Of a DNA stretch of 64,000 bases, positions 9,164 through 54,896 are shown one piece after another. The position numbers were made by a program, and so were the translations under genes. The stretch is from a virus (taxonomy: Duplodnaviria; Heunggongvirae; Uroviricota; Caudoviricetes): IMG/VR virus record IMGVR_UViG_3300032294_002926. One strand, 5' to 3'. Positions within the stretch are counted from its first letter, which is position 1, and each line of letters opens with the position of its first letter. The notes beneath the pieces were generated by a model. The model had not been told where the DNA came from, made no database searches, and was given only the letters and a program-made list of their open reading frames with translations.

Positions 9164-10135
9164 ATGGATTTTATTGATTCGAAATACATTGGAATAATCT
9201 CACATAATCTTAAAAACTTTAAGAAAGTTAATAACAATACTTATAACTTTAGATGCTGTTTCTGCGGTGATTCTCAAAGAAATAAATCTAAAGCAAGAGG
9301 TTATTTCTATACAGTTAAAAATAATACCAACTTTAAATGCCACAATTGTGGCATGAGTTTATCTTTGAATAATTTTATAAAAACTTTAGATGAATCTATC
9401 CATAAGCAATATGTTTTAGATAAATTTAAAGAAGGGCATTCTGGAAAAAATTTCCCAACACCTGCACCAAAACTTATTTTTAAGAAACCATCTTTTCGGG
9501 AAAAAATAGATTTACCTAAAGCATCTGCAAATGAGTATGCCAAAAATTATTTACTAAAGAGAAAAATAAATCCTGATAATTTTTATTATGCTGAAAAGTT
9601 TAAAGAATGGGTAAACACAAAAAAATCTACTTTTTCTGAAATTAAATATGAAGAATCCAGAATTATAATTCCTTTATATAATTCTAAAAGTGAACTTATA
9701 GGGTTTCAAGGAAGAAGCATTCAATATTCATCAAATAAATATATCACAGTTATGCTTTCTGAAAATGATCCCAAAATATATGGACTTCATAAAGTGGATT
9801 TCGAAAAACCGATATACATCGTTGAAGGTCCCTTTGATTCCGAATTCGTCGAAAACTCCATTGCTATGTGTGGGTCTGATATTGATATTGGGGCGTTTGG
9901 CTGGAGCAATTATATTTGGGTATTTGATAACGAACCTCGCAATCGAGAAATCGTCTCAAAATTATCAAAAACCATTGATAGAGGGGATAAAGTAGTAATT
10001 TGGCCGTCCAACATTCAGCAAAAAGACATCAACGATATTGCATTAAGTGGACTTAATGTTATGAATGTGTTAAAATCAAACATCTATTCTGGTTTAGAAG
10101 CAAAAATCAAATTTAACAATTGGAAAAAAGTATGA
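9164..10135 (+). CDS. DNA primase (T4 gp61-like; Zn-ribbon + Toprim)
   Basis: CCFCGDS...CHNCG zinc ribbon; Toprim motifs IYIVEGPFDS and VFDNEP. Confidence 0.75.
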   Translation: MDFIDSKYIGIISHNLKNFKKVNNNTYNFRCCFCGDSQRNKSKARGYFYTVKNNTNFKCHNCGMSLSLNNFIKTLDESIHKQYVLDKFKEGHSGKNFPTPAPKLIFKKPSFREKIDLPKASANEYAKNYLLKRKINPDNFYYAEKFKEWVNTKKSTFSEIKYEESRIIIPLYNSKSELIGFQGRSIQYSSNKYITVMLSENDPKIYGLHKVDFEKPIYIVEGPFDSEFVENSIAMCGSDIDIGAFGWSNYIWVFDNEPRNREIVSKLSKTIDRGDKVVIWPSNIQQKDINDIALSGLNVMNVLKSNIYSGLEAKIKFNNWKKV

Positions 10136-12867
10136 GTAATAGTACAAGTGTAGTCAAAAGAAACGGGTCTATTGAATATCTTGATTTGAATAAACTTCAT
10201 CTCATGGTTGACGAGGCTTGTAAAGACTTGTCAGGAGTATCTGCAAGTCAAGTCGAAATGACTTCTGGTATTCAATTTTATGATGGAATCACAACAGCAG
10301 AAATTCAAGAAATTTTAATTAAATCTGCATCGGATTTAATTAGTTTAGATCATCCAAATTATCAGTATGTTGCATCTCGTCTATTATTGTTTTCAATTCG
10401 TAAAAGTCTTTATGGTGGACGAATTGATCTTCCGAGTTTATATGACCATATTAAAAAAGTAATTGATTTGGGATTTTATGATTCAAATATTTTGAATCTT
10501 TATACAGAAGAAGAATTTAATGAAATTAATTCTTATATTGATCATGATAGAGATTTCTTGTTCACTTATGCTGGTCTTCGTGAAATTGTAGACAAATATC
10601 TTGTTCAAGATAGAAGTAAAAAACAAGTATTTGAAACTCCTCAATACATGTACATGCTTGTTGCTTTAATTACATTTTCATCTTATCCAAAAGAATCTAG
10701 ATTAAATTATGTGAAGCGTTATTATGATGCTATCAGTAAACATAAAATTAATATTCCTACGCCGATTATGGCAGGAGTAAGAACGAATAAAAAACAATAT
10801 GCAAGTTGCACTCTTCTAGATTGTGGCGATTCTATGGAATCAATTATTGCAACGACAGGAGCATTAATGCGATATGTTGCAGCTAAATCCGGAATTGGAT
10901 TAAATGTAGGAAGAATTCGGGGATTAGGTTCTAAAATTCGTAATGGAGAAGTAGTTCATACCGGAATTGTTCCATTTATTAAAGCATTTGAAGGTGTTTT
11001 GAATTCATGTTGTGTAACTCCAGATACTTGGGTTGAGATATTAGAACCATTGCAAGATCTGAGCACGAAAATGACAAAAACTAAAAAAATTAAAATTAAA
11101 GACCTCCAGATTGGAGAAAAGATTAAGACTAAGGATGAAAATGGAAATATTGTTTTTAAAAGGGTGACTGATAAATTCAATACTATAGTATCTTCAGAGA
11201 ATCAAGTACTTTTAAGATTTACTAATGGGTCAAAATTAAATTGTTCTACTAATCATCCTATTTTGATTCTTGGTGATGGTGGCGAGTTTATAGAGAAATT
11301 GCCAATGGATATTTCTGATTCTGATAAAATTATCACAGAATCGGGTGTTACTAATTTATTATCTATAGATAACTACCAACAAAACGATATCAATTATATA
11401 GATATAACAGTAGAAGATTGCCATACATTCTTTGCTTCAGATACTGAATTCGAAGAAATGATTTTAACTCATAACAGTCAAGGAGGTCTTCGTAAAGGAT
11501 CTGCAACCTTGTTTTTTCCCATTTGGCATCAAGAAATCAAAGAATTAATAGTGCTTAAAAATGAAAAAGGAAATGATGAGAATCGTGCTCGTTCTTTAGA
11601 TTATGCCGTGTCCATCTCAAAAATTTTCTATGAGAGATTTATCAACAATGAAGAAATTACTCTCTTCTCTCCACATGACGTTCTTGGTCTGTATGATGCT
11701 TTTGGTACTGATAGATTTGACGAGTTATATGTTCATTATGAACGAGATGAGTCTATTCCAAAGAAAACTGTTAATGCTCAGGAACTCATTCTTGAGATTT
11801 TAAATGAAAGAAGTGATACTGGTCGAATTTATATTCTGAATATTGATCATGCAAATAGTCATGGTCCATATACAAAAACGATTCGTATGAGTAATCTTTG
11901 TTTAGAAATTTGTTTGTTGACGGATCCTATTGAACATATTGATGATATAAATGGTGCTATTGCTCTTTGCATTCTTTCTGCATTAAATGCAGGAACTATC
12001 AAGAATGAAAAAGAATTGGAAGAATGTTGTGATCTTTCCGTGAGATCTTTGGATGAATTGATTGACATTCAAGAATATCCAGTAAAAGCAGCTGAAATTG
12101 CAACAAAAAGATATAGACCTCTTGGAATTGGCATCATTGGACTTGCACATTATCTTGCAAAATTAGGATATAATTACGAAGATTCTGATGCATGTAATTC
12201 TGTTCATAGGTTGTCAGAAAGTCTTCAATATTATCTTTTGAAAGCATCAAATCAACTTGCAAAAGAAAAAGGTATTTGCGAAGGTTTCAGTGATACGAAA
12301 TATTCACAAGGAATTCTTCCAATTGATACTTATAAAAAAGATGTTGATGAATTTTGTACAGAACCCTTACAACATGACTGGGAATCTTTGAGAAGAAATA
12401 TTATGGAATATGGTTTGAGGAATACAACTCTCACTGCAGCTATGCCATCAGAGACATCATCAAAAACGTCTAATGCCACTAATGGAATTGAACCTCCAAG
12501 AGGATATCTTTCTGTAAAGAGAAAAATCAAACAAATAGTTCCTCAATATTCAACACTCAAAAATAATTACACACTTCTTTGGGATATGAAGTCAAATGAA
12601 GGATACTTTAATATTGTTGCAGTGATGCAAAAATTCTTCGATCAATCTATTAGTGCGAATTGGAGTTATAATCCAGAAAATTATCCAGATAAAAAAGTAC
12701 CAATGAGTGTTGTCGTGAACGATTTTCTTCAAGCATACAAAAAGGGACATAAGACAGCATACTATATGAATACCTATGATGGTAAGAAAGATGATATGCA
12801 ATTAGATGATTTAATAAACGAAATTTTAGAACAAGGGGAAGAATCCTGTGAATCCTGCAAAATCTGA
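10120..12867 (+). CDS. nrdA: Ribonucleoside-diphosphate reductase alpha subunit (class Ia) carrying an in-frame mini-intein
   Basis: N-terminal ATP-cone; active-site regions QYASCTLLDCGDS, NLCLEICLL and GGLRKGSATLFFPIWH. Over 900 aa because of the intein insertion. Confidence 0.9.
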   Translation: MEKSMSNSTSVVKRNGSIEYLDLNKLHLMVDEACKDLSGVSASQVEMTSGIQFYDGITTAEIQEILIKSASDLISLDHPNYQYVASRLLLFSIRKSLYGGRIDLPSLYDHIKKVIDLGFYDSNILNLYTEEEFNEINSYIDHDRDFLFTYAGLREIVDKYLVQDRSKKQVFETPQYMYMLVALITFSSYPKESRLNYVKRYYDAISKHKINIPTPIMAGVRTNKKQYASCTLLDCGDSMESIIATTGALMRYVAAKSGIGLNVGRIRGLGSKIRNGEVVHTGIVPFIKAFEGVLNSCCVTPDTWVEILEPLQDLSTKMTKTKKIKIKDLQIGEKIKTKDENGNIVFKRVTDKFNTIVSSENQVLLRFTNGSKLNCSTNHPILILGDGGEFIEKLPMDISDSDKIITESGVTNLLSIDNYQQNDINYIDITVEDCHTFFASDTEFEEMILTHNSQGGLRKGSATLFFPIWHQEIKELIVLKNEKGNDENRARSLDYAVSISKIFYERFINNEEITLFSPHDVLGLYDAFGTDRFDELYVHYERDESIPKKTVNAQELILEILNERSDTGRIYILNIDHANSHGPYTKTIRMSNLCLEICLLTDPIEHIDDINGAIALCILSALNAGTIKNEKELEECCDLSVRSLDELIDIQEYPVKAAEIATKRYRPLGIGIIGLAHYLAKLGYNYEDSDACNSVHRLSESLQYYLLKASNQLAKEKGICEGFSDTKYSQGILPIDTYKKDVDEFCTEPLQHDWESLRRNIMEYGLRNTTLTAAMPSETSSKTSNATNGIEPPRGYLSVKRKIKQIVPQYSTLKNNYTLLWDMKSNEGYFNIVAVMQKFFDQSISANWSYNPENYPDKKVPMSVVVNDFLQAYKKGHKTAYYMNTYDGKKDDMQLDDLINEILEQGEESCESCKI
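11011..11475 (+). other. Mini-intein (155 aa, no endonuclease domain) inserted in nrdA between ...LNSC and SQGG...
   Basis: Starts CVTPDTWVEIL (block A) and ends ILTHN with +1 Ser (block G). The insertion sits just before the conserved GG(L/I)RxG extein motif. Confidence 0.75.
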
Positions 12868-21072: not shown

Positions 21073-22254
21073 ATGAGCACATTTATAGGAAAAGATTCTG
21101 AATTGATGAAAGGTGTGATTGAAGTTTTTCCTCAGACCGATAAATTCAATAATCATCTTAGAATTAAACTTGGTTTTGATCCAACATCAGATCGTTTACA
21201 TTTGGGGCATCTAGTTCTTTTAAATAAAATTAAACAATTTCAATCTCATGGGCATCATGCCTGTATTATCATTGGAGATTTTACTGCTAAAGTGGGAGAT
21301 CCTACCGGAAGAAATGAAACAAGACCACAACTTTCTGATGAAGAAATTGATTTCAATGTAAACTCTATTTTAAAAATTATAAAAAAATTTCTTGATCCAG
21401 AAGTAGAAATTTTCAAAAATAGTTCTTGGCTATTTAAACAAACTCCAGATTCTCTATTATCTTTAATGAGTCTCTTTACAGTAAATCAAATGCTTGCCAA
21501 AGAAGACTTTGGAAATCGATATAAAGATGGCAATCCTATTGGAATGCATGAGTTTATGTATCCTCTTCTTCAGGGTCTAGATAGTTTAATTATAAAGTCT
21601 GATGTAGAAATTGGTGGTAGTGATCAAAAATTTAATATTGGTATTGGTCGAGATATACAAAAAAAGTTTAATTCTTCGGAAAAATCTCAAATAGGAATTC
21701 TTATGCCAATTCTTCAAGGAAGAGATGGATCATCTAAAATGTCAAAGTCAAAGAATAACACAATAAATCTTGACGATGAACCTTTAGAAATGTATTCTAA
21801 ATTGGAGAAAATTCCTGATCATATTGTCTTAGATTATTTGAACTTGCTGACAGATGTTCCGCAATCCGAATATCCCAAAGAAAATAGAGAGAGGCAAAGG
21901 TTCATGGCATTTAAAGTGACCGAATCTATACATGGATTAGATAAAACTCAAGAAGCACAAAAAATTTCAGAGAAGATTGTACTTAAAGGTCAAACTTCAG
22001 ATGACATGAATATTCCTGAGATTTATATTCCAGAAAATTTGGAATTTCCTATTCCTTTATGTGTCTTTATGTTTATGATGGGAATGTCTACAAGTATAAG
22101 TGATTCTAAACGTAAGATTCAATCTGGTGCAGTGAGACTTAATGATGAAAAAATTGTGGATGTCGAAAAAATTCTCGATACTGCACAAAGTATGAATGGT
22201 GTTATACTCAGAACAAGCCGAACAAATTTTAAAAAAATTCTTTTGAAATCATGA
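21073..22254 (+). CDS. tyrS: Tyrosyl-tRNA synthetase (class I aaRS) with a C-terminal S4-like domain
   Basis: GFDPTSDRLHLGHLV (HIGH), GDFTAKVGDPTGRN, KMSKSK (KMSKS); C-terminal SDSKRKIQSGAVRLNDEKIVD is S4-like. Confidence 0.8.
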   Translation: MSTFIGKDSELMKGVIEVFPQTDKFNNHLRIKLGFDPTSDRLHLGHLVLLNKIKQFQSHGHHACIIIGDFTAKVGDPTGRNETRPQLSDEEIDFNVNSILKIIKKFLDPEVEIFKNSSWLFKQTPDSLLSLMSLFTVNQMLAKEDFGNRYKDGNPIGMHEFMYPLLQGLDSLIIKSDVEIGGSDQKFNIGIGRDIQKKFNSSEKSQIGILMPILQGRDGSSKMSKSKNNTINLDDEPLEMYSKLEKIPDHIVLDYLNLLTDVPQSEYPKENRERQRFMAFKVTESIHGLDKTQEAQKISEKIVLKGQTSDDMNIPEIYIPENLEFPIPLCVFMFMMGMSTSISDSKRKIQSGAVRLNDEKIVDVEKILDTAQSMNGVILRTSRTNFKKILLKS

Positions 22255-26010: not shown

Positions 26011-27036
26011 ATGAAAAAATACGATGTAATTGTTTTTATTGGTAGATTTCAACCATTTCATAATGCTCATTTAGAGATCATTAAACGAGCAACAGAACTT
26101 GCAGAACACATTGCAATTATTGTTGGATCTGCAAATCAACCCAGAACATTTAAGAATCCTTTCTCTTATGAGGAAAGAGAAGATTTAATCAATAAAACTT
26201 TAATGATGATGAAGATGAACACTAATTACAGTATTCATCCAAACCAAGATACTATTTACAATGACGATTCTTGGGCAACAAGAGTTCAAAATGTTGTAAA
26301 CAAAATTAATCCTTTTGAAAGTTCTAGAATTGGAATCATTGGGCATAAAAAGGACGAGTCTTCTTTCTACCTTGATATGTTTCCTCAATGGAACTTAATT
26401 GAAGTTCCTTTGATTGAAGAATTAAGTGCATCTCAGATTCGTCAACTTTATTTTAAACGAGACTTTAATTCAAATTTTATTAAGAATGTTCTTCCTCAAG
26501 AAGTTCTGGACTTTCTCAATAAATTTTCTCAAACAGAAGATTATCAACAAATTCTGAAAGAGATTAATTTTGTTGAGAAATACAAATCTCAATATGCTTC
26601 TTTCCCATATCCTCCAACCTTCGTGACTGTGGATGCTGTTATAGTGCAATCGGGGCATATTCTAATGATTCGTCGTCGTGCAGAACCTGGAAAAGGACTT
26701 CTTGCTCTACCTGGTGGATTCTTAGACGCTTTGAGTGATAAATCTTTAGAGGATGCTATGATACGGGAGGTAAGGGAAGAAACTCAACTCAAGGTGCCTG
26801 CTCCAGTTCTTCGTGGTAGTATTGAGGAAGCAAAAGTTTTTGATGCTATTGAACGTAGCACAAGAGGTAGAACAATCACTCATGCATTTCACATCAAACT
26901 TCCTAACGGAGAACTTCCAAAAGTGAAGGGAGGAAGTGATGCTACATCTGCAAAGTGGATTCCAATTTCTAAAATCACTCCAAATGAGTGCTTTGAAGAC
27001 CACTATGAAATCATTAATTATTTTACTGGAGTCTAA
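26011..27036 (+). CDS. Bifunctional NMN adenylyltransferase / Nudix ADP-ribose pyrophosphatase (NadM-Nudix, NatV-like)
   Basis: N-terminal VIVFIGRFQPFHNAHLEII (HxGH nucleotidyltransferase); C-terminal Nudix box GGFLDALSDKSLEDAMIREVREETQL. Confidence 0.8.
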   Translation: MKKYDVIVFIGRFQPFHNAHLEIIKRATELAEHIAIIVGSANQPRTFKNPFSYEEREDLINKTLMMMKMNTNYSIHPNQDTIYNDDSWATRVQNVVNKINPFESSRIGIIGHKKDESSFYLDMFPQWNLIEVPLIEELSASQIRQLYFKRDFNSNFIKNVLPQEVLDFLNKFSQTEDYQQILKEINFVEKYKSQYASFPYPPTFVTVDAVIVQSGHILMIRRRAEPGKGLLALPGGFLDALSDKSLEDAMIREVREETQLKVPAPVLRGSIEEAKVFDAIERSTRGRTITHAFHIKLPNGELPKVKGGSDATSAKWIPISKITPNECFEDHYEIINYFTGV

Positions 27037-29177: not shown

Positions 29178-30014
29178 GTGTCCTCTTTTGAGTCTGCTGG
29201 TATCGGTGGTCTCGCACACCTTGTAAACTTCAAGGGAACGGATACAGTCACCGCTCTTCTTTACGGTAAAGAATACTACGACATTTATATGGCAGGATTC
29301 TCTATTCCCGCCAGTGAACATAGTACCTGCACCTCTTGGGGTAGGGAAGGTGAAGAAGATTCTTACCGTAATATGGTAAAACTCTACGGCAAACCTGGTT
29401 CTCTATTTGCTTGCGTAAGTGATAGTTATAACATTTACGATGCTTGTCATATGTGGGGCACTGTGTTAAAGGATGATATAATCAACTCTGGTGCAACTCT
29501 TGTAGTTCGCCCAGATAGTGGACATCCACCAGAAGTGGTAATAAATTGCCTTCAACTTTTAGACAAATATTTTGGACACACGATCAATGAGAAAGGATTC
29601 AAAGTTCTTAATTATGTTCGTGTAATTCAGGGTGATGGTATTACTCAAGATACGATTGACCGTATTCTTTATAGAGCAATGACTGCTGGTTATTCTTCAG
29701 ACAACATTGCTTTCGGTCAAGGTGGTAAACTGCTTCAGAGTATTGACCGAGACACTCAAAAGTTTGCTATGAAGTGTTCTTCTATTGAAGTTAACGGAGA
29801 GCAACGCGATGTCTATAAGAGTCCGATTACCGATATGGGTAAAGAATCCAAGAAAGGTCGTGTAACTCTCTATCGTAATGATGAAGGTTACTTCACCGAC
29901 TTGGAAGGTAGGACTGATGCGGTAGAAGTTCTTGAAACTGTATTTGAGAAAGGTGAACTGGTCAAAGAATATACCTTTGATGAGGTTCGTAAAAATGCTT
30001 CGGTGATTATCTAA
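29178..30014 (+). CDS. nadV: Nicotinamide phosphoribosyltransferase (NadV), exon 2 (true exon start ~29172 at Arg-Gly-Val; the tracked ORF starts at an internal GTG)
   Basis: [25 protein letters not shown]... matches the NAMPT C-terminal half through to the end. Confidence 0.8.
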   Translation: [278 protein letters not shown]

Positions 30015-32058: not shown

Positions 32059-33561
32059 ATGAAACTTAATTCATTAATTCTTGCATCTGCTGTTCTTGGT
32101 TCAATTTTCCCAGTTTCTTCTAATGCATCTGAATTAAAAATTTCGGAAGTGTCTCAATACTCTTCTGATCAAGTAACAAGCATCTCTCAATTTAGTGATG
32201 TAAAACCAACGGATTGGTCGTATCAAGCACTGAGTAATCTTATTGAAAGGTATGGTTGCGTTGCAGGTTATCCGAATGGAACCTATGCTGGAAGTCAATC
32301 CATGACTCGCTATGAAGCAGCTGCTCTCTTGAATTCTTGCTTGGATAGAGTAACTGAAGTGACTGATGAACTTAAGAGACTTCTCACCGAATTTTCGAAA
32401 GAACTTTCTGTAATTCGAGGTCGAGTTGATGTTGCTGAAGCGAAAATTGGAGTACTTGAATCAAATCAATTTTCTACGACTACCAAACTTCGTGGAGAAT
32501 CTAGTTTTGTTCTTGGTGGTGTTCCAGGTGCTCGTCTCAATCCAACATCTCTTTATCAAAATGGTCAAAATGTAGGAAATACTGCATTTAATTATGATCT
32601 TCGTCTGAATTTTGATACATCGTTTAATGGTGAAGACTTGCTTCGTACTCGTATCCGATCGGGTAATTTTTCTTCTCAACCATTTGGTTCAAGTTCTTCT
32701 ATTCTGAAATTGGATAAAGCAGAAACCACGACTTCCAATTCAGCGATTATTGATCGCCTTTATTATAGTTTTCCCGCTCTTACTAAAGGTTTGACTCTTA
32801 CTGCTGGTCCACTGGTTCGTAATACTGAAATGGCATGGGTGCCTACTGCATATCGTTCGGAAATCTTGGATTTCTTTACTACTGCAGGTGTTCCAGGTGT
32901 TTATAATAAAGCAACTGGTTCTGGATTCGGCGCACAATGGGTTCAACCTGGAAAAAGAGGTTTTGTTGCGGGAGTGAACTATGTTGCTCAGAACGGTTCA
33001 GATTCATCCAAAGGTGTATTTGATGAAACTGGTGGGTTGAATGCAATGGTTCAACTTGGTTATCGTGCTCCTAACTATGGTATTGCATTCGGTTACCGTT
33101 ACGGTACTGAAGGGACAAGAGTTCGTACTTATAATGGTCCTTTGGGTGCAAGTGGTGTTCTTACTCCAGAGCAAACTTCGAACGGATATGGAGTGAATGC
33201 ATACTGGCAACCTTCTCAGGGTGGTACTCTTATGCCATCAATTAGTGCAGGATATGGATGGAATACTGTGAGTGATTCGACTTCGATTTCTAACAGTGCC
33301 ACGAATACATCTACGTGGTTTGCCGGACTCCAATGGAGTGACGTGTTTGTGAGTGGAAATTCTGCTGGCGTTGCATATGGTCAACCCGGAAATTATTCTG
33401 GTTTGAGTGATAAAGCATCTCTTCTTGAAATTTTCTATAAATTTAGAGTTGGGGACAATGTGAGTATCACTCCTGCAATCATCTATGTTCAAAATAATCA
33501 AGCATTTAAAGATGTAGAATCTAGATGGGGTGGGATCGTTCAGACGAAATTTACTTTCTAA
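32059..33561 (+). CDS. Cyanobacterial-type outer-membrane porin: signal peptide + SLH domain + OprB-like beta-barrel
   Basis: Signal peptide MKLNSLILASAVLGSIFPVSSNA; SLH motif FSDVKPTDWSYQALSNLIERYGCVAGYPNGTYAGSQSMTRYEAAALL; C-terminal Gly/aromatic-rich alternating beta-strands ending in a terminal Phe (QTKFTF). Confidence 0.6.
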   Translation: MKLNSLILASAVLGSIFPVSSNASELKISEVSQYSSDQVTSISQFSDVKPTDWSYQALSNLIERYGCVAGYPNGTYAGSQSMTRYEAAALLNSCLDRVTEVTDELKRLLTEFSKELSVIRGRVDVAEAKIGVLESNQFSTTTKLRGESSFVLGGVPGARLNPTSLYQNGQNVGNTAFNYDLRLNFDTSFNGEDLLRTRIRSGNFSSQPFGSSSSILKLDKAETTTSNSAIIDRLYYSFPALTKGLTLTAGPLVRNTEMAWVPTAYRSEILDFFTTAGVPGVYNKATGSGFGAQWVQPGKRGFVAGVNYVAQNGSDSSKGVFDETGGLNAMVQLGYRAPNYGIAFGYRYGTEGTRVRTYNGPLGASGVLTPEQTSNGYGVNAYWQPSQGGTLMPSISAGYGWNTVSDSTSISNSATNTSTWFAGLQWSDVFVSGNSAGVAYGQPGNYSGLSDKASLLEIFYKFRVGDNVSITPAIIYVQNNQAFKDVESRWGGIVQTKFTF

Positions 33562-50025: not shown

Positions 50026-50125
50026 TATTTGTAGGAAGCGAACACCTCTCTTTGGGTTCTTTGAGAAACTGAATGAAGTGAAAGAGGAGAATTACTTGCG
50101 CTTTAGACTCTCCCTCCTACCCCAT

Positions 50126-50197
50126 ATTCGGGTAGTCTAGTGGTCAGGACGAGCAGACAATGCATATGGAGTTCGGGTTCGATTCCCGATCCGAATA
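50126..50197 (+). pseudogene. Degenerate tRNA-like sequence (Glu/Asp-type D-arm, canonical T-arm, no pairable anticodon stem)
   Basis: Acceptor attcggg/tccgaat; D-arm gtc-tagtggtcag-gac; T-arm tcggg-ttcgatt-cccga; central region agcag-acaatgc-atatg cannot pair. Confidence 0.3.
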
Positions 50198-50221
50198 TTT
50201 GACTAAATATTTATTATCTTT

Positions 50222-50292
50222 GCGGATATAGTGTAGTGGTAACATATGATCCTTCCAAGTTCCAGTCACGGGTTCGAATCCCGTTATCCGCT
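50222..50292 (+). tRNA. tRNA-Gly (anticodon UCC)-like, homologous to T4 tRNA-Gly, with a weak anticodon stem (3/5 pairs)
   Basis: gcggata...tatccgc acceptor identical to T4 tRNA-Gly ends; anticodon loop cuUCCaa; T-arm acggg-ttcgaat-cccgt. Confidence 0.5.
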
Positions 50293-50517
50293 TTCAAATC
50301 TCATGAGTCCGCTGAGTACAAATACGGATTGTCAGGATCTCATGATGGTGTTATGATAAGTACATCGGAAAAAAGGAAAACCTGATTCTGATACTCCCGT
50401 TAACCGAGACCTATGGGGAGTCTAAACACGTCTCTTATCTTGCCTTCTCTTGAGGGTGGAGAAGGAAAATAACGTAAAGAATCTTCCCTAGATTCACTTT
50501 ATTTTCTTTAAATTCTT

Positions 50518-51597
50518 ATGACTGCTACAATTGCTACACGTTCACAAAGTAACGCTTGGGAAGATTTTTGCCAGTGGGTTACTTCAACCAATAATAGGTT
50601 GTACGTTGGGTGGTCGGGAACCATTATGATTCCTTGCCTTCTTGCTGCTACTATTTGCTTTATTCTTGCTTTTATTGCAGCACCTCCCGTTGACATAGAT
50701 GGCATTAGAGAACCTGTTGCTGGGTCTCTTATGTGGGGGAATAACATTATCTCGGGTAATGTTATTCCAAGTTCTAATGCTATCGGACTTCATTTTTATC
50801 CTATCTGGGAAGCACAATCTCTTGAAGAATGGTGTTACAACGGAGGTGAATATCAACTCATCATCTTCCATTTTCTAATTGGTATTTGGATGTATGCTAT
50901 GAGAGAGTGGGAACTTTCTTACCGTCTTGGAATGCGCCCTTGGATTTTTGTTGCATATTCTGCTCCTGCCATTGCAGCAACTGCGGTATTTCTTCTTTAT
51001 CCTATTGGTCAAGGTTCTTTCTCTGATGGTATGCCTCTGGGTATTTCTGGAACCTTTAATTTTATGCTTGTCTTCCAAGCAGAACATAATATCCTTATGC
51101 ACCCCTTCCATCAAATGGGAGTTATCGGTGTTTTCGGTGGTGCTTTTGCTGGAGCAATGCATGGTTCCCTCGTAACCTCTTCAATTGTTCGTGAAACCAC
51201 TGAGACTGAATCTCAGAACTATGGTTACAAGTTCGGACAAGAGGAAGAAACTTATAACATTGTTGCTGCACATGGTTATTTCGGTCGTCTTATTTTCCAA
51301 TATGCGTCCTTCAATAACTCACGTTCACTACATTTCTTCCTTGCTGCACTTCCTGTAATTGGCATTTGGTTTACTTCTCTTGGCATTGCCACTATGAGTT
51401 ATAACCTCAACGGGTTTAACTTCCAACATAGTGTTCAAGATGCACAAGGACGAGTTATTCCTACTTGGGCAGATGTTCTCGGAAGAGCAAATTTGGGTCT
51501 AGAAGTCATCCACGAACGTAACGCACACAATTTTGCATTGGATTTGGCGACAGTATCAACTACAGAAGTAGCACTCATTGCACCTGAAATTGGTTGA
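50518..51597 (+). CDS. psbA: Photosystem II reaction-centre protein D1, full length and uninterrupted
   Basis: 359-aa product with diagnostic D1 motifs ([10 protein letters not shown]..., [26 protein letters not shown], ...ALIAPEIG). Confidence 0.95.
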
Positions 51598-51669: not shown

Positions 51670-52266
51670 ATGATAACATATATTGCAACAAATACTTTGA
51701 ATGGAAAGTTTTATATTGGAAGCACTTTTAATTTTGAAAGAAGAAAACAAGAACATTTAGAATCAAAAAATAATTATCCATTTCAAAACTCTCTCCGTAA
51801 AAATCCAGATAAGTTTGAATGGGAAACTTACATTGATGAATATGATGAACCAATTTTAGAGCAATCATTATTGGATGTGTGGTGGGGGAAGTCGCAATGT
51901 TATAATATAAATCAATATGCTTCTCGTCCACCAGACCCAACGGGAAGAATTCTTAGTAAAGTGTCAAAAGATAAAATAAGTAAAAAATTAAAGGGTAGAG
52001 TAATAAATGAAAAAACTAGAAAGGCAGTTTCATACTCAAATAAAACTAGACATCTTAATGAAGAAACTTTAAAGATAAAATCTGATGCTATACTTGGAGA
52101 AAAGAACCCATTTTATGGAAAAAAACATAGTGAAGAAACTATTCGTAATTTATCCGAAAAAAGAAAAGGTTTAAAATGGTGGTATAATGAGAAAACTAAA
52201 AAAACTTGTATGTCTAAAGAATTGCCGGGTGAAGGATGGAGACGGGGTAGAAAATACTCATCTTGA
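51670..52266 (+). CDS. GIY-YIG homing endonuclease with NUMOD3-like DNA-binding repeats, immediately downstream of psbA
   Basis: MITYIATNTLNGKFYIGST (GIY-YIG); repeated ..KNPFYGKKHSEETIRNLSEKRKG.. NUMOD3-like units. Confidence 0.65.
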   Translation: MITYIATNTLNGKFYIGSTFNFERRKQEHLESKNNYPFQNSLRKNPDKFEWETYIDEYDEPILEQSLLDVWWGKSQCYNINQYASRPPDPTGRILSKVSKDKISKKLKGRVINEKTRKAVSYSNKTRHLNEETLKIKSDAILGEKNPFYGKKHSEETIRNLSEKRKGLKWWYNEKTKKTCMSKELPGEGWRRGRKYSS

Positions 52267-52309: not shown

Positions 52310-53182
52310 ATGCCTCAAATTCAAAAACCTCTTCTTGCTGGAAAATTTGATGCTTCTAAAGCAAAATTTCCATATATTGTAACGCCAAAGATTGATGGTG
52401 TTCGATTCTTAATGGTCAACGGTGTTGCAGTATCTCGTACATTTAAACCTATTCGGAATGTTTATATTCAGAATTTACTTCAACAATATTTACCTGATGG
52501 AGTTGATGGAGAAATTACATCTGGAGACACGTTTCAGTCTTCTACATCTGCAGTGATGACAATCGAAGGATCTTCGAATTTTAAGGTATGGTTGTTTGAT
52601 TATGTAAATCCAGAAAATGATATAATTGAACCTTTTATGAAACGTTTGAAGAAGATGCCAACTCTTCCTTCCACTCCATTTGAGTATGAGATTCTTTATG
52701 GATCTTTGAAAAATACAATTGAAGAAGTGGAGGATTTTGAAAAAATATGTCTTCTCAAAGGATATGAAGGAGTGATGTTGCGGTCTCCTTCAGGAACTTA
52801 TAAGTTCGGTCGTTCTACTATCAACGATAATATTCTTTTAAAACTTAAAAGATTTGAAGATTCTGAAGCAATTCTTATTGATATAGAAGAGAAGATGAGT
52901 AATCAAAACCCGGAAAAACTTGATGCCTTTGGATATATTAAAAGATCCTCTGCATTGGATGGTATGATTTCTATGAATACTACTGGCGCTCTTATAGTTA
53001 AGGATGAGCATAATCAATTTAAAATTGGTAGTGGATTGGATGATAAAATGAGAGAAGAAATATGGAATAATAAGAGTTCTTATATCGGGAAAATTGTAAA
53101 GTACAAATATTTTCCAGTAGGAGTGAAAGAACTTCCAAGGCATCCTGTGTTTCTTGGGTTTCGTGATAAAGAAGATTTCTGA
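52310..53182 (+). CDS. ATP-dependent DNA ligase-like nucleotidyltransferase (small T7/Chlorella-virus type)
   Basis: Motif I KIDGVR; motif III GVDGEIT; motif IV WLFDYV; motif V ILLKLKRF. Confidence 0.55.
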   Translation: MPQIQKPLLAGKFDASKAKFPYIVTPKIDGVRFLMVNGVAVSRTFKPIRNVYIQNLLQQYLPDGVDGEITSGDTFQSSTSAVMTIEGSSNFKVWLFDYVNPENDIIEPFMKRLKKMPTLPSTPFEYEILYGSLKNTIEEVEDFEKICLLKGYEGVMLRSPSGTYKFGRSTINDNILLKLKRFEDSEAILIDIEEKMSNQNPEKLDAFGYIKRSSALDGMISMNTTGALIVKDEHNQFKIGSGLDDKMREEIWNNKSSYIGKIVKYKYFPVGVKELPRHPVFLGFRDKEDF

Positions 53183-53220
53183 TAATATATAATATTATTC
53201 CTTAGACGATGTGAGGTATT

Positions 53221-54048
53221 ATGACCATTGAAGATAAAATAAAAGAATTTCAAAAATGTAAAGATGATCCAATATATTTTATCAATACTTACGTGAAATG
53301 TGCATCACCACAATCATCACAATCAATAGTAAAACTTTATGATTATCAAGAAGATATCATAAGAAGATATCATAATAATCGATTTACTATTGTAAAAGGC
53401 TGTAGACAATCTGGAAAATCATTCACTGGAATTTTATATATTCTTCATTATATTCTTTTTAATGAAAATGTAATTGTAGGACTTTTTTCTCATAATCGAT
53501 CAGCTGCTGTAGATCTGTTAACTAGACTATCAGACATTTATCTAGAACTTCCGAGTTGGATGAGAATGGAAGTGATTAAATATAACAAAACAGAACTTGA
53601 ACTTGGAAATGGATCTAAAATCTGTGCATCATCTGTGAATCTAACTTCAGCACATGCAACTATTTTTGATTTAATTTTTCTTGATGAATTTGCATTTGTG
53701 AATGATGAGATTGCAGGAAATTTTTGGGAAATGATGATTCCCACAGTTTTTTCTAGAAGAACAAAACTTATTGTTTCTTCGACTCCTTTTTATAGTCATA
53801 AACTGACTGTAGATGATGAAGGTAACATCATTACTATTAAAGTTCCAACTCTTTTTTATGTTTTATGGATTGATGCAATATTTGGAAGAAATACCTTTAT
53901 TCCTTATGAGATTTCTTGGAGGATTTTACTTCCTGAAAAGGATGAGCAATGGAAAGAAAAACAAATTGCTTATATTGGTAAAGACAAATTCGACAATGAA
54001 TATGAATGTAAATTTTTAGACAATGTTTCAACTTCTAATATTTTTTGA
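53221..54048 (+). CDS. Terminase large subunit (T4 gp17-like) ATPase domain only; the nuclease domain is absent
   Basis: DYQEDIIRRYHNNRFTIVKGCRQSGKSFTGI (Walker A), LIFLDEFAFV (Walker B), IVSSTPF (motif III) align to T4 gp17 residues ~130-290. The ORF ends where the gp17 nuclease domain should begin, with no continuation in any frame. Confidence 0.65.
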   Translation: MTIEDKIKEFQKCKDDPIYFINTYVKCASPQSSQSIVKLYDYQEDIIRRYHNNRFTIVKGCRQSGKSFTGILYILHYILFNENVIVGLFSHNRSAAVDLLTRLSDIYLELPSWMRMEVIKYNKTELELGNGSKICASSVNLTSAHATIFDLIFLDEFAFVNDEIAGNFWEMMIPTVFSRRTKLIVSSTPFYSHKLTVDDEGNIITIKVPTLFYVLWIDAIFGRNTFIPYEISWRILLPEKDEQWKEKQIAYIGKDKFDNEYECKFLDNVSTSNIF

Positions 54049-54087
54049 ACTCTTTGGACTGTTCCTTTTCATTATGTCTCTGTTTCC

Positions 54088-54116
54088 TTGACATAATTCT
54101 GAATACTCGCTAAAAT
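54088..54116 (+). promoter_or_regulatory. Sigma-70-like promoter (TTGACA-17 nt-TAAAAT)
   Basis: ttgaca taattctgaatactcgc taaaat ~75 nt upstream of the 54195 ATG. Confidence 0.4.
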
Positions 54117-54194
54117 ACTTATAGATTCGTGATGCAAATGAATTATCGGAAAGAAACACTTAGAGAATATACTGAAAGAGACTGAAAAAATATT

Positions 54195-54896
54195 ATGTAC
54201 GATGCAACTTTTATAAGCGATGTTCATCTCGGATCTCCTAGATGTAACACGAAAAAGTTTTTAAAATTTTTGAAAGAACTTCAAACTAAAAAACTAATAA
54301 TGGTGGGTGATATTATAGACATCTATTGTATGGAGAAATATAATACTCGCTGGACAAAAGAACATACTGAATGTGTTCATCAGATTTTAGAACTTCTCAA
54401 AAAAGGCACGGAAGTTGTTTATATTCTTGGAAATCATGAGGCACAAATTCGTAGATACTGTAATTTTTCTCATGAAAATTTTAAGATGGTGAATGAATAT
54501 ACTCATATGGATTCAAGAGGAAATAAGATTCTTTGTGTTCATGGAGATAAGTATTCGCAGTATTCATCTGGTTCCTGGAAACAATTGTTATTTAATAAAG
54601 GATATGAATATATTACTCCAATGAGTGTATTTTTAGAAAAATTTTTAAAAATTTCTTTGATTCATATTCTTAAAAATACGTCTCGTGGTAGAAAATATAT
54701 TAATCATTATGAGACTGATATTGCATCATATGGTGTTCGAAGAGAAGAGAAATATAATGGAATAATTTGTGGACATATTCATCACGCAAAGATTCGAGAA
54801 TTTGGTACAATCACGTATATGTGTTGTGGAGACTGGTGTGATCAATGTACGTATATTACAGAAATGAATGGCGAATATAAATTATTATTTTATTGA
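54195..54896 (+). CDS. Calcineurin-like metallophosphoesterase (LpxH-like layout)
   Basis: ISDVHLGSP, MVGDIID, GNHE, HGD, GHIH motifs. Confidence 0.6.
   Translation: MYDATFISDVHLGSPRCNTKKFLKFLKELQTKKLIMVGDIIDIYCMEKYNTRWTKEHTECVHQILELLKKGTEVVYILGNHEAQIRRYCNFSHENFKMVNEYTHMDSRGNKILCVHGDKYSQYSSGSWKQLLFNKGYEYITPMSVFLEKFLKISLIHILKNTSRGRKYINHYETDIASYGVRREEKYNGIICGHIHHAKIREFGTITYMCCGDWCDQCTYITEMNGEYKLLFY

What the first reader, a model, noticed from the sequence alone, without database searches (positions are those of the whole stretch)
53221..54200. Terminase large subunit present only as its ATPase domain
Residues align convincingly to the T4 gp17 N-terminal ATPase (Walker A CRQSGKS, Walker B FLDEFAF, coupling motif SSTPF). 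The ORF stops at a point corresponding to ~gp17 residue 290. No frame continues into a nuclease domain. Downstream are a sigma-70-like promoter, a phosphoesterase and an HNH gene instead. Either the nuclease half is encoded elsewhere (another fractured gene, consistent with the HEG load), or the HNH/phosphoesterase genes supply cutting in trans, or this is a non-packaging paralog.
Basis: partly seen in the sequence, partly recalled or inferred. Interest (0 to 1): 0.65.

Follow-up and report, generated by a model that had tools for sequence, protein, structure and literature searches.

The report
Stand-alone terminase ATPase paralogue in cyanophage
This gene encodes only the ATP-burning half of a phage DNA-packaging enzyme; it is most likely not a broken or split gene but a member of an apparently undescribed family of extra, fast-evolving copies that T4-like cyanophages carry beside their normal packaging enzyme.

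Summary
The ORF at 53221-54048 (275 aa) is real. It encodes a complete T4-type large-terminase (TerL) ATPase domain with intact Walker A, Walker B and coupling motifs. No nuclease domain follows in any frame. The stop codon recurs in 11 independent contigs.

It is not a split-intein half. Related 297-aa ORFs are AceL/GOS-TerL-type split genes, but this ORF carries no intein piece. It belongs to a family of at least 43 clusters of intein-less, ATPase-only TerL homologues with the same start and end points. The family is monophyletic in a neighbour-joining tree.

On three viral contigs a family member lies directly after a complete canonical gp17 and before gp18. There its dN/dS is 0.49, against 0.03 for gp17.

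The window ORF is only 40% identical to the TerL of the closest isolate, S-SRM01. Other orthologues are mostly about 70% (range 48-74%). The neighbouring HNH and phosphoesterase genes are also present in S-SRM01, which has a full-length TerL.

Best reading: an accessory TerL-ATPase paralogue. This phage's own canonical gp17 is predicted about 35-40 kb upstream of the window but could not be reached.

The parts
53221..54048 (+). ORF of 275 aa: a stand-alone TerL ATPase domain with no nuclease domain and no intein piece. Stop codon TGA at 54046-54048.
   Evidence: Identical protein on 11 contigs.
53213..53216 (+). GAGG, a Shine-Dalgarno-like site 4 nt before the ATG.
   Evidence: Read directly from the sequence; inference only.
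53338..53349 (+). YDYQ motif; the Q aligns with T4 gp17 Q143 (adenine-binding residue).
   Evidence: Alignment with T4 gp17; the column is invariant.
53401..53421 (+). Walker A motif CRQSGKS. R62 aligns with T4 R162 and K66 with T4 K166.
53671..53697 (+). Walker B motif LIFLDEFAF. E156 aligns with the T4 catalytic E256.
53776..53787 (+). Coupling (C) motif SSTP, aligned with T4 TTTP 285-288.
53791..53847 (+). Subclade-specific 19-residue insertion (YSHKLTVDDEGNIITIKVP), modelled as a beta-hairpin.
   Evidence: Absent from canonical TerLs and from P0013. Strands 191-197 and 203-209 in the model.
54004..54045 (+). ECKF, the last conserved residues (F265 = T4 F356), followed by a 10-residue tail. 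The tail is variable in sequence, and residues 268-275 are modelled as disordered. The tail resembles the start of the inter-domain linker, not an intein N-fragment.
   Evidence: pLDDT below 50 for residues 268-275.

Best explanation
The ORF is an accessory paralogue of the terminase large-subunit ATPase domain. It is not the phage's packaging terminase and not half of a fractured gene.

The protein:
- It is a complete, foldable ATPase domain that probably binds and hydrolyses ATP, since all catalytic residues are present.
- It lacks the conserved N-terminal 'YLGNPxLK' segment of canonical T4-type TerLs and the whole nuclease/DNA-groove domain.
- On its own it therefore can neither cut DNA nor form a complete motor subunit.

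The family:
- It belongs to a distinct, fast-evolving family of such ATPase-only proteins in uncultured T4-like (mostly cyano-) phages.
- These sit either directly after the canonical gp17, inside the late packaging/tail cluster, or in the variable island downstream of psbA, as here.

Inferred, not shown:
- This phage keeps a canonical gp17 between gp16 and gp18, about 35-40 kb upstream of the window.
- The paralogue acts on or beside the packaging machinery, for example by binding the small terminase, the portal or gp17 itself and modulating or competing with motor assembly.
For: Shown:
- Complete ATPase domain with intact motifs and a high-confidence fold.
- No nuclease domain in the window or within 10 kb of the gene in four relatives.
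- Real stop codon on 11 contigs.
- No intein N-fragment, whereas the 297-aa relatives at the gp16-gp18 locus are split-intein genes.
- The phage is a Kyanoviridae closest to S-SRM01. Nine orthologues are 48-74% identical (six of them 69-74%) and primase is 69%. This ORF is only 40% identical to the S-SRM01 TerL N domain. Canonical N domains are 55-76% identical to one another.
- At least 43 clusters of ATPase-only homologues share the same start, the same end and an 'AW[NK]QE[YF]EC[KE]F' ending (the window ORF has the variant KFDNEYECKF). They are separated from full-length TerLs by bit score, though the margin at the boundary is small.
- The family is monophyletic in 100% of 60 NJ bootstraps.
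- Catalytic or coupling motifs that are invariant in about 50 canonical TerLs are eroded in several family members.
- Direct co-occurrence: on IMG/VR contigs L396 and L397 a family member lies between a complete split-intein gp17 and gp18-gp19-gp20. On L398 only its 3' end is seen, next to gp18-gp20.
- In that pair, dN/dS is 0.49 for the paralogue and 0.03-0.05 for gp17, gp18, gp19 and gp20.
- S-SRM01 has the same psbA ... phosphoesterase ... HNH-fibre locus without this gene, and a 573-aa TerL at the canonical site.
Against: - The canonical gp17 of this very phage was not seen. The upstream walk stopped at gp47, at about window position -24.4 kb. Database searches with TerL C domains were swamped by other cyanophages.
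- The family members that sit beside a canonical gp17 are only 33-37% identical to the window ORF and its closest relatives. By raw identity they are no closer to them than to canonical TerLs. The NJ grouping could therefore owe something to long-branch attraction.
- Absence of a matching family of nuclease-only ORFs was checked only among the best 150 representatives.
- The proposed activity (modulating packaging) rests on no direct evidence.
Confidence: 0.75

Rival explanations
1. True genes-in-pieces terminase. This ORF is the phage's only TerL ATPase. The nuclease half is a separate ORF elsewhere, and the two associate without splicing.
For: - The ORF ends exactly at the domain boundary and has all catalytic residues.
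- The phage is rich in fractured genes: gp43, an AAA_5 ATPase and nrdA alleles.
- This phage's canonical gp17 was not directly observed.
Against: - There is no intein fragment to rejoin the halves.
- Identity to the nearest isolate's TerL is 40%, against mostly about 70% for other orthologues.
- The conserved N-terminal segment is lost.
- Family members lie beside complete gp17 genes.
- Selection on the family member that could be tested (L396/L397 pair) is relaxed: dN/dS 0.49 against 0.03.
- Several family members have damaged Walker or coupling motifs.
- No nuclease-only ORF without an intein, and not explained by truncation or a frameshifted assembly, was found among the best 150 representatives.
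- The gene is absent from the same locus in S-SRM01.
Confidence: 0.08
2. A functionless remnant: a truncated duplicate or captured fragment of a TerL gene that is decaying.
For: - Relaxed selection in the L396/L397 pair (dN/dS 0.49).
- Motif erosion in some members.
- Location in a hypervariable island rich in homing endonucleases.
Against: - At least 43 clusters keep an intact ORF with the same boundaries.
- Q, R, K and the catalytic E are invariant across 19 diverse members.
- dN/dS remains below 1.
- In the window gene the only variants among strains are two synonymous changes.
- The fold is predicted with pLDDT 92.
Confidence: 0.1
3. Modular terminase: the ATPase-only protein works with the neighbouring HNH endonuclease and/or metallophosphoesterase, which cut DNA in trans.
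For: - An HNH gene lies 0.7-5 kb from the ATPase-only gene in the window, L009, L011 and L275.
- HNH proteins assist terminases in HK97-like phages (from my own knowledge, not checked here).
Against: - The same HNH (61% identical) sits directly before the fibre gene in S-SRM01, P-SSM2 and S-SKS1. The same phosphoesterase is also in S-SRM01. These phages have full-length TerL and no ATPase-only gene.
- On L396/L397 the ATPase-only gene lies directly between gp17 and gp18, with no HNH or phosphoesterase between.
- The phosphoesterase is LpxH-like, below family cut-offs.
Confidence: 0.03
4. Sequencing or assembly artefact: a frameshift hides a full-length gene.
For: None found.
Against: - Identical ORF and stop on 11 contigs from different samples and assemblers.
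- Homologues in other phages end within a few residues of the same point.
- No nuclease-coding sequence in any frame.
Confidence: 0.01

Closest known systems
T4 gp17 N-terminal ATPase domain (crystal construct of about 360 residues; PDB 2O0H, 2O0J; full length 3CPE)
   Same: - Same fold (TM 0.84 over the whole ORF).
- Same Q, R-finger, Walker A, Walker B, catalytic Glu and coupling motifs.
- The ORF ends at about the same boundary as the crystallised domain.
   Different: - In T4 this is a domain of a 610-aa protein, not a separate gene.
- The window protein lacks the region before about T4 residue 104, including the conserved LGxPNLKR segment.
- It carries a 19-residue hairpin insertion after the coupling motif.
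Naturally split TerL genes with atypical split inteins (AceL-TerL, GOS-TerL; described in PMC11766414)
   Same: - The gene is interrupted within a few residues of the same place. The intein sits between '...EFE' and 'C(D/E)FLGS'; the window ORF ends 13 residues after that Cys.
- These are the commonest ATPase-only TerL ORFs among the homologues.
   Different: - Those N ORFs end with a 25-37-residue intein N-fragment. They are followed by an ORF carrying the intein C-fragment plus the nuclease, at the gp16-gp18 locus.
- The window ORF has no intein piece and no adjacent partner, lies elsewhere, and belongs to a separate clade.
Genes-in-pieces made by homing-endonuclease insertion (fractured genes, PMC2677866; T4 gp39/gp60 and Aeromonas phage Aeh1 nrdA from my own knowledge)
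   Same: A conserved enzyme gene appears as a domain-sized ORF in a phage full of homing endonucleases and inteins.
   Different: - In those cases both pieces are orthologous parts of the single gene, stay close together, and evolve like the intact gene.
- Here the piece is a divergent extra copy.
T4 gp17' and gp17'' internal-start products (annotated in NC_000866)
   Same: Shorter TerL forms that coexist with the full-length protein.
   Different: Those are N-terminally shortened products of the same gene and keep the nuclease. The window protein is a separate gene that keeps only the ATPase.

Membership tests
T4-type large terminase subunit (gp17/TerL) | N-terminal ASCE ATPase domain (Pfam Terminase_6N) with Walker A, Walker B, catalytic Glu and coupling motif | tested here: met
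T4-type large terminase subunit (gp17/TerL) | C-terminal RNase H-like nuclease domain (Pfam Terminase_6C) in the same protein, or joined to it by splicing | tested here: not met
   No match in the window by tblastn or by a C-domain HMM. No intein piece.
T4-type large terminase subunit (gp17/TerL) | Conserved N-terminal segment (YLGNPxLKxxN) ahead of the ATPase core | tested here: not met
   Present in every canonical TerL aligned, T4 included. Absent from the window ORF and all family members.
T4-type large terminase subunit (gp17/TerL) | Position between small terminase gp16 and tail sheath gp18 in the late cluster | tested here: not met
   The ORF lies between a DNA ligase and a phosphoesterase, downstream of psbA. 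No gp13-gp23 homologue is in the window.
T4-type large terminase subunit (gp17/TerL) | DNA packaging and cutting activity | not testable with these tools
   Needs biochemistry or genetics.
Split-intein fractured TerL (AceL-TerL / GOS-TerL type) | N ORF ends with an intein N-fragment (Cys or Ser first, about 25-37 residues) straight after '...EFE' | tested here: not met
   The window ends '...NEYE|CKFLDNVSTSNIF'. This aligns with the extein 'CDFLGSSDTLIS', not with 'CLDGNTMITV...'.
Split-intein fractured TerL (AceL-TerL / GOS-TerL type) | Partner ORF with an intein C-fragment ending HN|C, followed by the nuclease domain, adjacent or nearby | tested here: not met
   Nothing within the window or within 10 kb in relatives.
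   - Family profile score of 415 bits, against at most 339 bits for full-length TerLs.
- NJ clade of 17 members supported by 100% of 60 bootstraps, with a long-branch caveat.
   - Shown for members on L396 and L397, and consistent with the 3' end seen on L398.
- For the window's phage it is only inferred from synteny with S-SRM01.

The most novel reading that the evidence does not exclude
The ATPase-only TerL copies are conflict genes rather than housekeeping parts. One possibility is a decoy that occupies host sensors recognising the terminase ATPase domain; Avs-type sensors bind TerL (PDB 8DGC appeared among the fold matches). Another is a dominant-negative subunit that poisons the packaging motors of co-infecting rival phages. 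Four observations fit this reading but do not demonstrate it: the high dN/dS, the patchy presence among close relatives, the loss of coupling-motif residues in some lineages, and the siting in a variable island.
Probability: 0.15. Interest if true: 0.85.

Novelty: new variant of a known kind. Interest (0 to 1): 0.5.

Why it matters
- Automatic annotation will call this gene 'terminase large subunit'. That can mislead TerL-based phylogenies, genome-completeness checks and packaging-strategy predictions for cyanophage genomes assembled from metagenomes.
- Tailed phages are generally taken to have one TerL. A conserved, fast-evolving second copy of the motor ATPase alone suggests an unrecognised layer of packaging control or of phage-host or phage-phage conflict. 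This can be tested with the well-developed T4 packaging assays.
- The finding also separates three things that look alike in raw sequence: split-intein TerL genes, TerL genes with inteins, and true ATPase-only paralogues.

Tried and rejected
**Finding this phage's own nuclease domain or canonical gp17**
- tblastn and an HMM on the window and on 20-kb loci of relatives found nothing.
- A protein-database search with the DSL-LC02 TerL C domain gave 2,987 hits. The best 120 were all 72-79% identical cyanophage TerLs, and none was on the 235,951-, 232,540- or 169,681-bp contigs.
- In the search of 50%-identity representatives, ten short nuclease-only candidates were checked. Nine sat on contigs of 1.1-2.5 kb, and two of them share a cluster with full-length proteins. 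The tenth lay on a 15.9-kb contig in which the terminase and portal genes are each split in two, which looks like a frameshifted assembly.
- Walking upstream with exact-protein look-ups reached gp47 at about -24.4 kb.
- IMG/VR holds no close relative of this phage.
- Matching contig lengths between lists of ATPase-only proteins and canonical TerLs gave no coincidence.
- The single metagenome scan, with the family signature, gave 7 loci and no new arrangement.

**Ideas tested and dropped**
- Intron or other RNA element after the ORF: no Rfam match near it.
- Functional promoter at 54088: such sites occur at chance frequency.
- Defence-system similarity of the ATPase-only protein: none in PADLOC.
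- 'YFINNYVK' as a family signature: rejected, because many canonical TerLs of other T4-like lineages carry it.
- 'WKQEYECEF' also occurs in full-length TerLs of distant T4-like lineages, which are no closer to the family overall.

**Literature**
- Searches found the split-intein TerL work but nothing on ATPase-only TerL paralogues.

Full report
**1. The observation**

The ORF at 53221-54048 (+) encodes 275 residues. It matches Pfam Terminase_6N over residues 60-275, covering profile positions 4-208 of 215. It also matches a PHROG annotated as terminase large subunit (E 9e-44).

- Walker A CRQSGKS at 53401-53421
- Walker B LIFLDEFAF at 53671-53697
- coupling motif SSTP at 53776-53787

The stated end point is wrong. 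In the alignment with T4 gp17, ORF residues 5-190 match gp17 105-289. The ORF then continues for 85 residues, and its F265 aligns with T4 F356. It therefore ends at about gp17 residue 366, the end of the complete ATPase domain and not residue 290.

An AlphaFold2 model has mean pLDDT 92.2 and pTM 0.89. Only the last eight residues are disordered. The model superposes on the T4 gp17 ATPase-domain crystal structures 2O0J and 2O0H over all 275 columns, with TM 0.84 normalised to the query. A 19-residue insertion after the coupling motif is modelled as a beta-hairpin.

No nuclease domain follows:
- A full-length cyanophage TerL finds only its residues 24-274 in the window.
- A TerL C-domain HMM built from 123 sequences finds nothing better than E about 2 in the six-frame translation. 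This holds for the window and for the 20-kb loci of four relatives.

The stop codon is real:
- The identical protein is encoded on 11 contigs from independent ENA and Logan assemblies.
- A second strain differs by two synonymous substitutions only.

**2. The genome**

The window is part of a 235,951-bp metagenomic scaffold from a T4-like cyanophage of the family Kyanoviridae.
- Primase is 69% identical to that of the freshwater Synechococcus phage S-SRM01.
- NrdB is 84% identical to that of phages B3 and B23.
- The 1331-aa fibre protein is 67% identical to that of S-SRM01.

Gene order upstream of the window (gp47, gp46..., gp45, gp44, gp62, regA, gp43, uvsX, gp41..., primase, nrdA) matches S-SRM01 gene for gene. 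Nine orthologues are 48-74% identical to S-SRM01, and six of the nine are 69-74%.

**3. Split-intein TerL genes are common among the relatives, but this is not one**

Many homologues are ORFs of about 297 aa that match the ATPase domain only. Two that I examined lie at the canonical locus, in the order gp16, N ORF, C ORF, gp18. They are split-intein genes:
- The N ORF ends '...TEFE|CLDGNTMITV...', with about 31 residues of intein.
- The C ORF starts with about 110 intein residues ending '...SHN|CDFVGS', after which the nuclease domain follows.

These correspond to the naturally split atypical inteins AceL-TerL and GOS-TerL (PMC11766414).

The window ORF instead ends '...NEYE|CKFLDNVSTSNIF'. 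That tail aligns with the extein sequence 'CDFLGSSDTLIS', not with an intein. It has no means of being spliced to anything.

**4. A distinct family of ATPase-only TerL homologues**

Proteins with the same architecture recur widely. Their shared features are:
- a start at about T4 residue 104, so they lack the 'YLGNPxLKxxN' segment found in every canonical TerL aligned, T4 included
- 'DPVYFINNYVK' near the start
- an end 2-13 residues after 'AW[NK]QE[YF]EC[KE]F' (the window ORF carries the variant KFDNEYECKF)
- no intein and no nuclease

A profile of 19 such proteins retrieves about 43 clusters at 336-453 bits. Full-length TerLs with both domains score at most 339 bits, so the margin at the lower edge of the family is small. 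In a neighbour-joining tree all 17 sampled members form one clade in 100% of 60 bootstraps, apart from all canonical N domains. The long-branch caveat applies.

Walker A, Walker B and the coupling motif are essentially invariant in about 50 canonical TerLs. Several family members have changes there:
- G to C in Walker A (P0003)
- GKA together with LEEF (P0008)
- SSI in place of STP throughout the P0013 subfamily

The window protein keeps all of these motifs. Most members with visible context lie downstream of psbA: the window, L009, L011, L275, L329, L399, L403 and L406.

**5. Direct co-occurrence with a complete terminase**

A DNA signature scan of IMG/VR found 11 loci. On L396 and L397 the gene order is:
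- gp17 N piece, 293 aa, with an intein N-fragment starting with Ser
- gp17 C piece, 421-432 aa
- ATPase-only paralogue, 252-259 aa
- gp18, gp19, gp20

On L398 only the 3' end of the paralogue is visible, next to gp18-gp20. An extra ATPase-only gene therefore coexists with a full canonical TerL in those phages.

Between L396 and L397 the paralogue has dN/dS 0.49. The two gp17 pieces and gp18-gp20 have 0.03-0.05. That is the pattern of an accessory gene, not of the essential motor.

The window ORF likewise is 40% identical to the S-SRM01 TerL N domain, while canonical N domains are 55-76% identical to one another.

**6. The neighbouring genes are not partners**

S-SRM01 has the same locus: psbA pieces, an LpxH-like phosphoesterase, small ORFs, HNH and the fibre gene. 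It lacks the ATPase-only gene and the ligase. It has a 573-aa TerL at the canonical site.

The HNH gene is 60-62% identical in S-SRM01, P-SSM2 and S-SKS1. In the 232-kb relative the phosphoesterase lies on the other side of the ATPase-only gene. Adjacency in the window therefore reflects the conserved layout of this region, not a functional module.

**7. What could not be done**

I could not read the rest of the 236-kb scaffold.
- The upstream walk ended at gp47, at about window position -24.4 kb. All Logan contigs stop there.
- By synteny with S-SRM01, gp17 should lie about 11-16 kb further upstream.
- Database searches for this phage's own TerL were swamped by other cyanophage TerLs.

The statement that this phage has a canonical gp17 is therefore an inference. 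It rests on the family-level co-occurrence, on the synteny, and on how atypical the ORF is.

**8. Mechanism**

Shown:
- The protein is a complete ATPase domain with all residues needed for ATP binding and hydrolysis.
- It has no DNA-cutting domain.

Inferred:
- In the model, helices at 242-252 and 254-260 lie in the region that aligns with the end of T4 gp17 subdomain II. I recall that a portal-binding helix pair was mapped there; this comes from memory and was not checked.
- At least one lineage places the gene inside the late packaging cluster.
- I therefore favour a role at the packaging machinery, as a modulator or competitor of motor assembly, over an unrelated DNA transaction. This is the weakest part of the account.

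Relaxed selection and patchy distribution also fit a conflict role, as a decoy or an inter-phage poison. I rate that at about 15%.

**9. Novelty**

Split-intein and intein-bearing TerL genes are known. I found no description of intein-less, ATPase-only TerL paralogues in the searchable literature. No sequenced isolate in the phage collection carries one.

I class this as a new variant of a known kind and of moderate interest.

Noticed in passing
window 10120-12867 (intein 11011-11475); L098 19583-20642: nrdA carries a 155-residue mini-intein (...NSC|CVTPDTW...THN|SQGG). In a co-occurring strain the sequence is 99.2% identical up to window position 11045 and then diverges. There nrdA stops about 15 residues into the intein and a new ORF begins. 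This looks like a contiguous-intein allele and a fractured allele at the same site.
   Followed up: partly
L099 13233-16251 and 2966-5387 (upstream of the window): DNA polymerase gp43 is in two ORFs (679 + 312 aa), both with intein-splicing hits. An AAA_5 ATPase is a 297-aa ORF with an intein hit, followed by a 486-aa ORF with a TnsA-like N domain. The phage has several fractured genes.
   Followed up: no
window 50125-51597: tRNA-His, tRNA-Gly and a PhotoRC-II RNA motif (50381-50478) precede an uninterrupted psbA. In relatives (L009, L011, L403, L406) and in S-SRM01, psbA is in several pieces with endonuclease genes between them.
   Followed up: partly
window 51670-52266: A GIY-YIG/NUMOD3 homing-endonuclease gene lies directly after psbA. 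A minimal ATP-dependent DNA ligase (52310-53182) follows; it is absent from the same locus in S-SRM01.
   Followed up: partly
window 32059-33561: A 500-aa ORF has an SLH domain and an OprB-type carbohydrate porin domain. This is a cyanobacterial outer-membrane porin homologue in a phage.
   Followed up: no
window 21073-22254; 26011-27036; 29178-30014: The phage encodes a tyrosyl-tRNA synthetase, a nucleotidyltransferase-Nudix fusion and a NAPRTase-family protein (NAD salvage).
   Followed up: no
L103 and L104, position 1 (about window -24.6 kb): Contigs from two of the three sequencing runs end at exactly the same base, just upstream of gp47. The third (L105) ends 751 bases further in, inside gp47. 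This suggests a repeat or a strain-variable segment there.
   Followed up: no
L097 23664-26306 (phage B3); P0219: The B3 TerL is 880 aa because of an intein of about 330 residues inside the Walker A loop. A TerL on a 245-kb metagenomic contig starts just after that point. This is a second intein site in cyanophage TerL, besides the domain-boundary site.
   Followed up: partly
L396 3352-4110 versus L397 5648-6448: The ATPase-only paralogue has dS 0.14, while the flanking gp17, gp18, gp19 and gp20 have dS 0.33-0.67. This could mean recent exchange of this gene between the two phages, or different codon constraints.
   Followed up: no
L395 1-858 (IMG/VR contig of 243,166 bp): An ORF that looks like an IS605 OrfB/TnpB-type protein lies about 3.4 kb from the ATPase-only TerL gene of this large phage contig. 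This is my reading of the sequence and was not tested against a family library.
   Followed up: no
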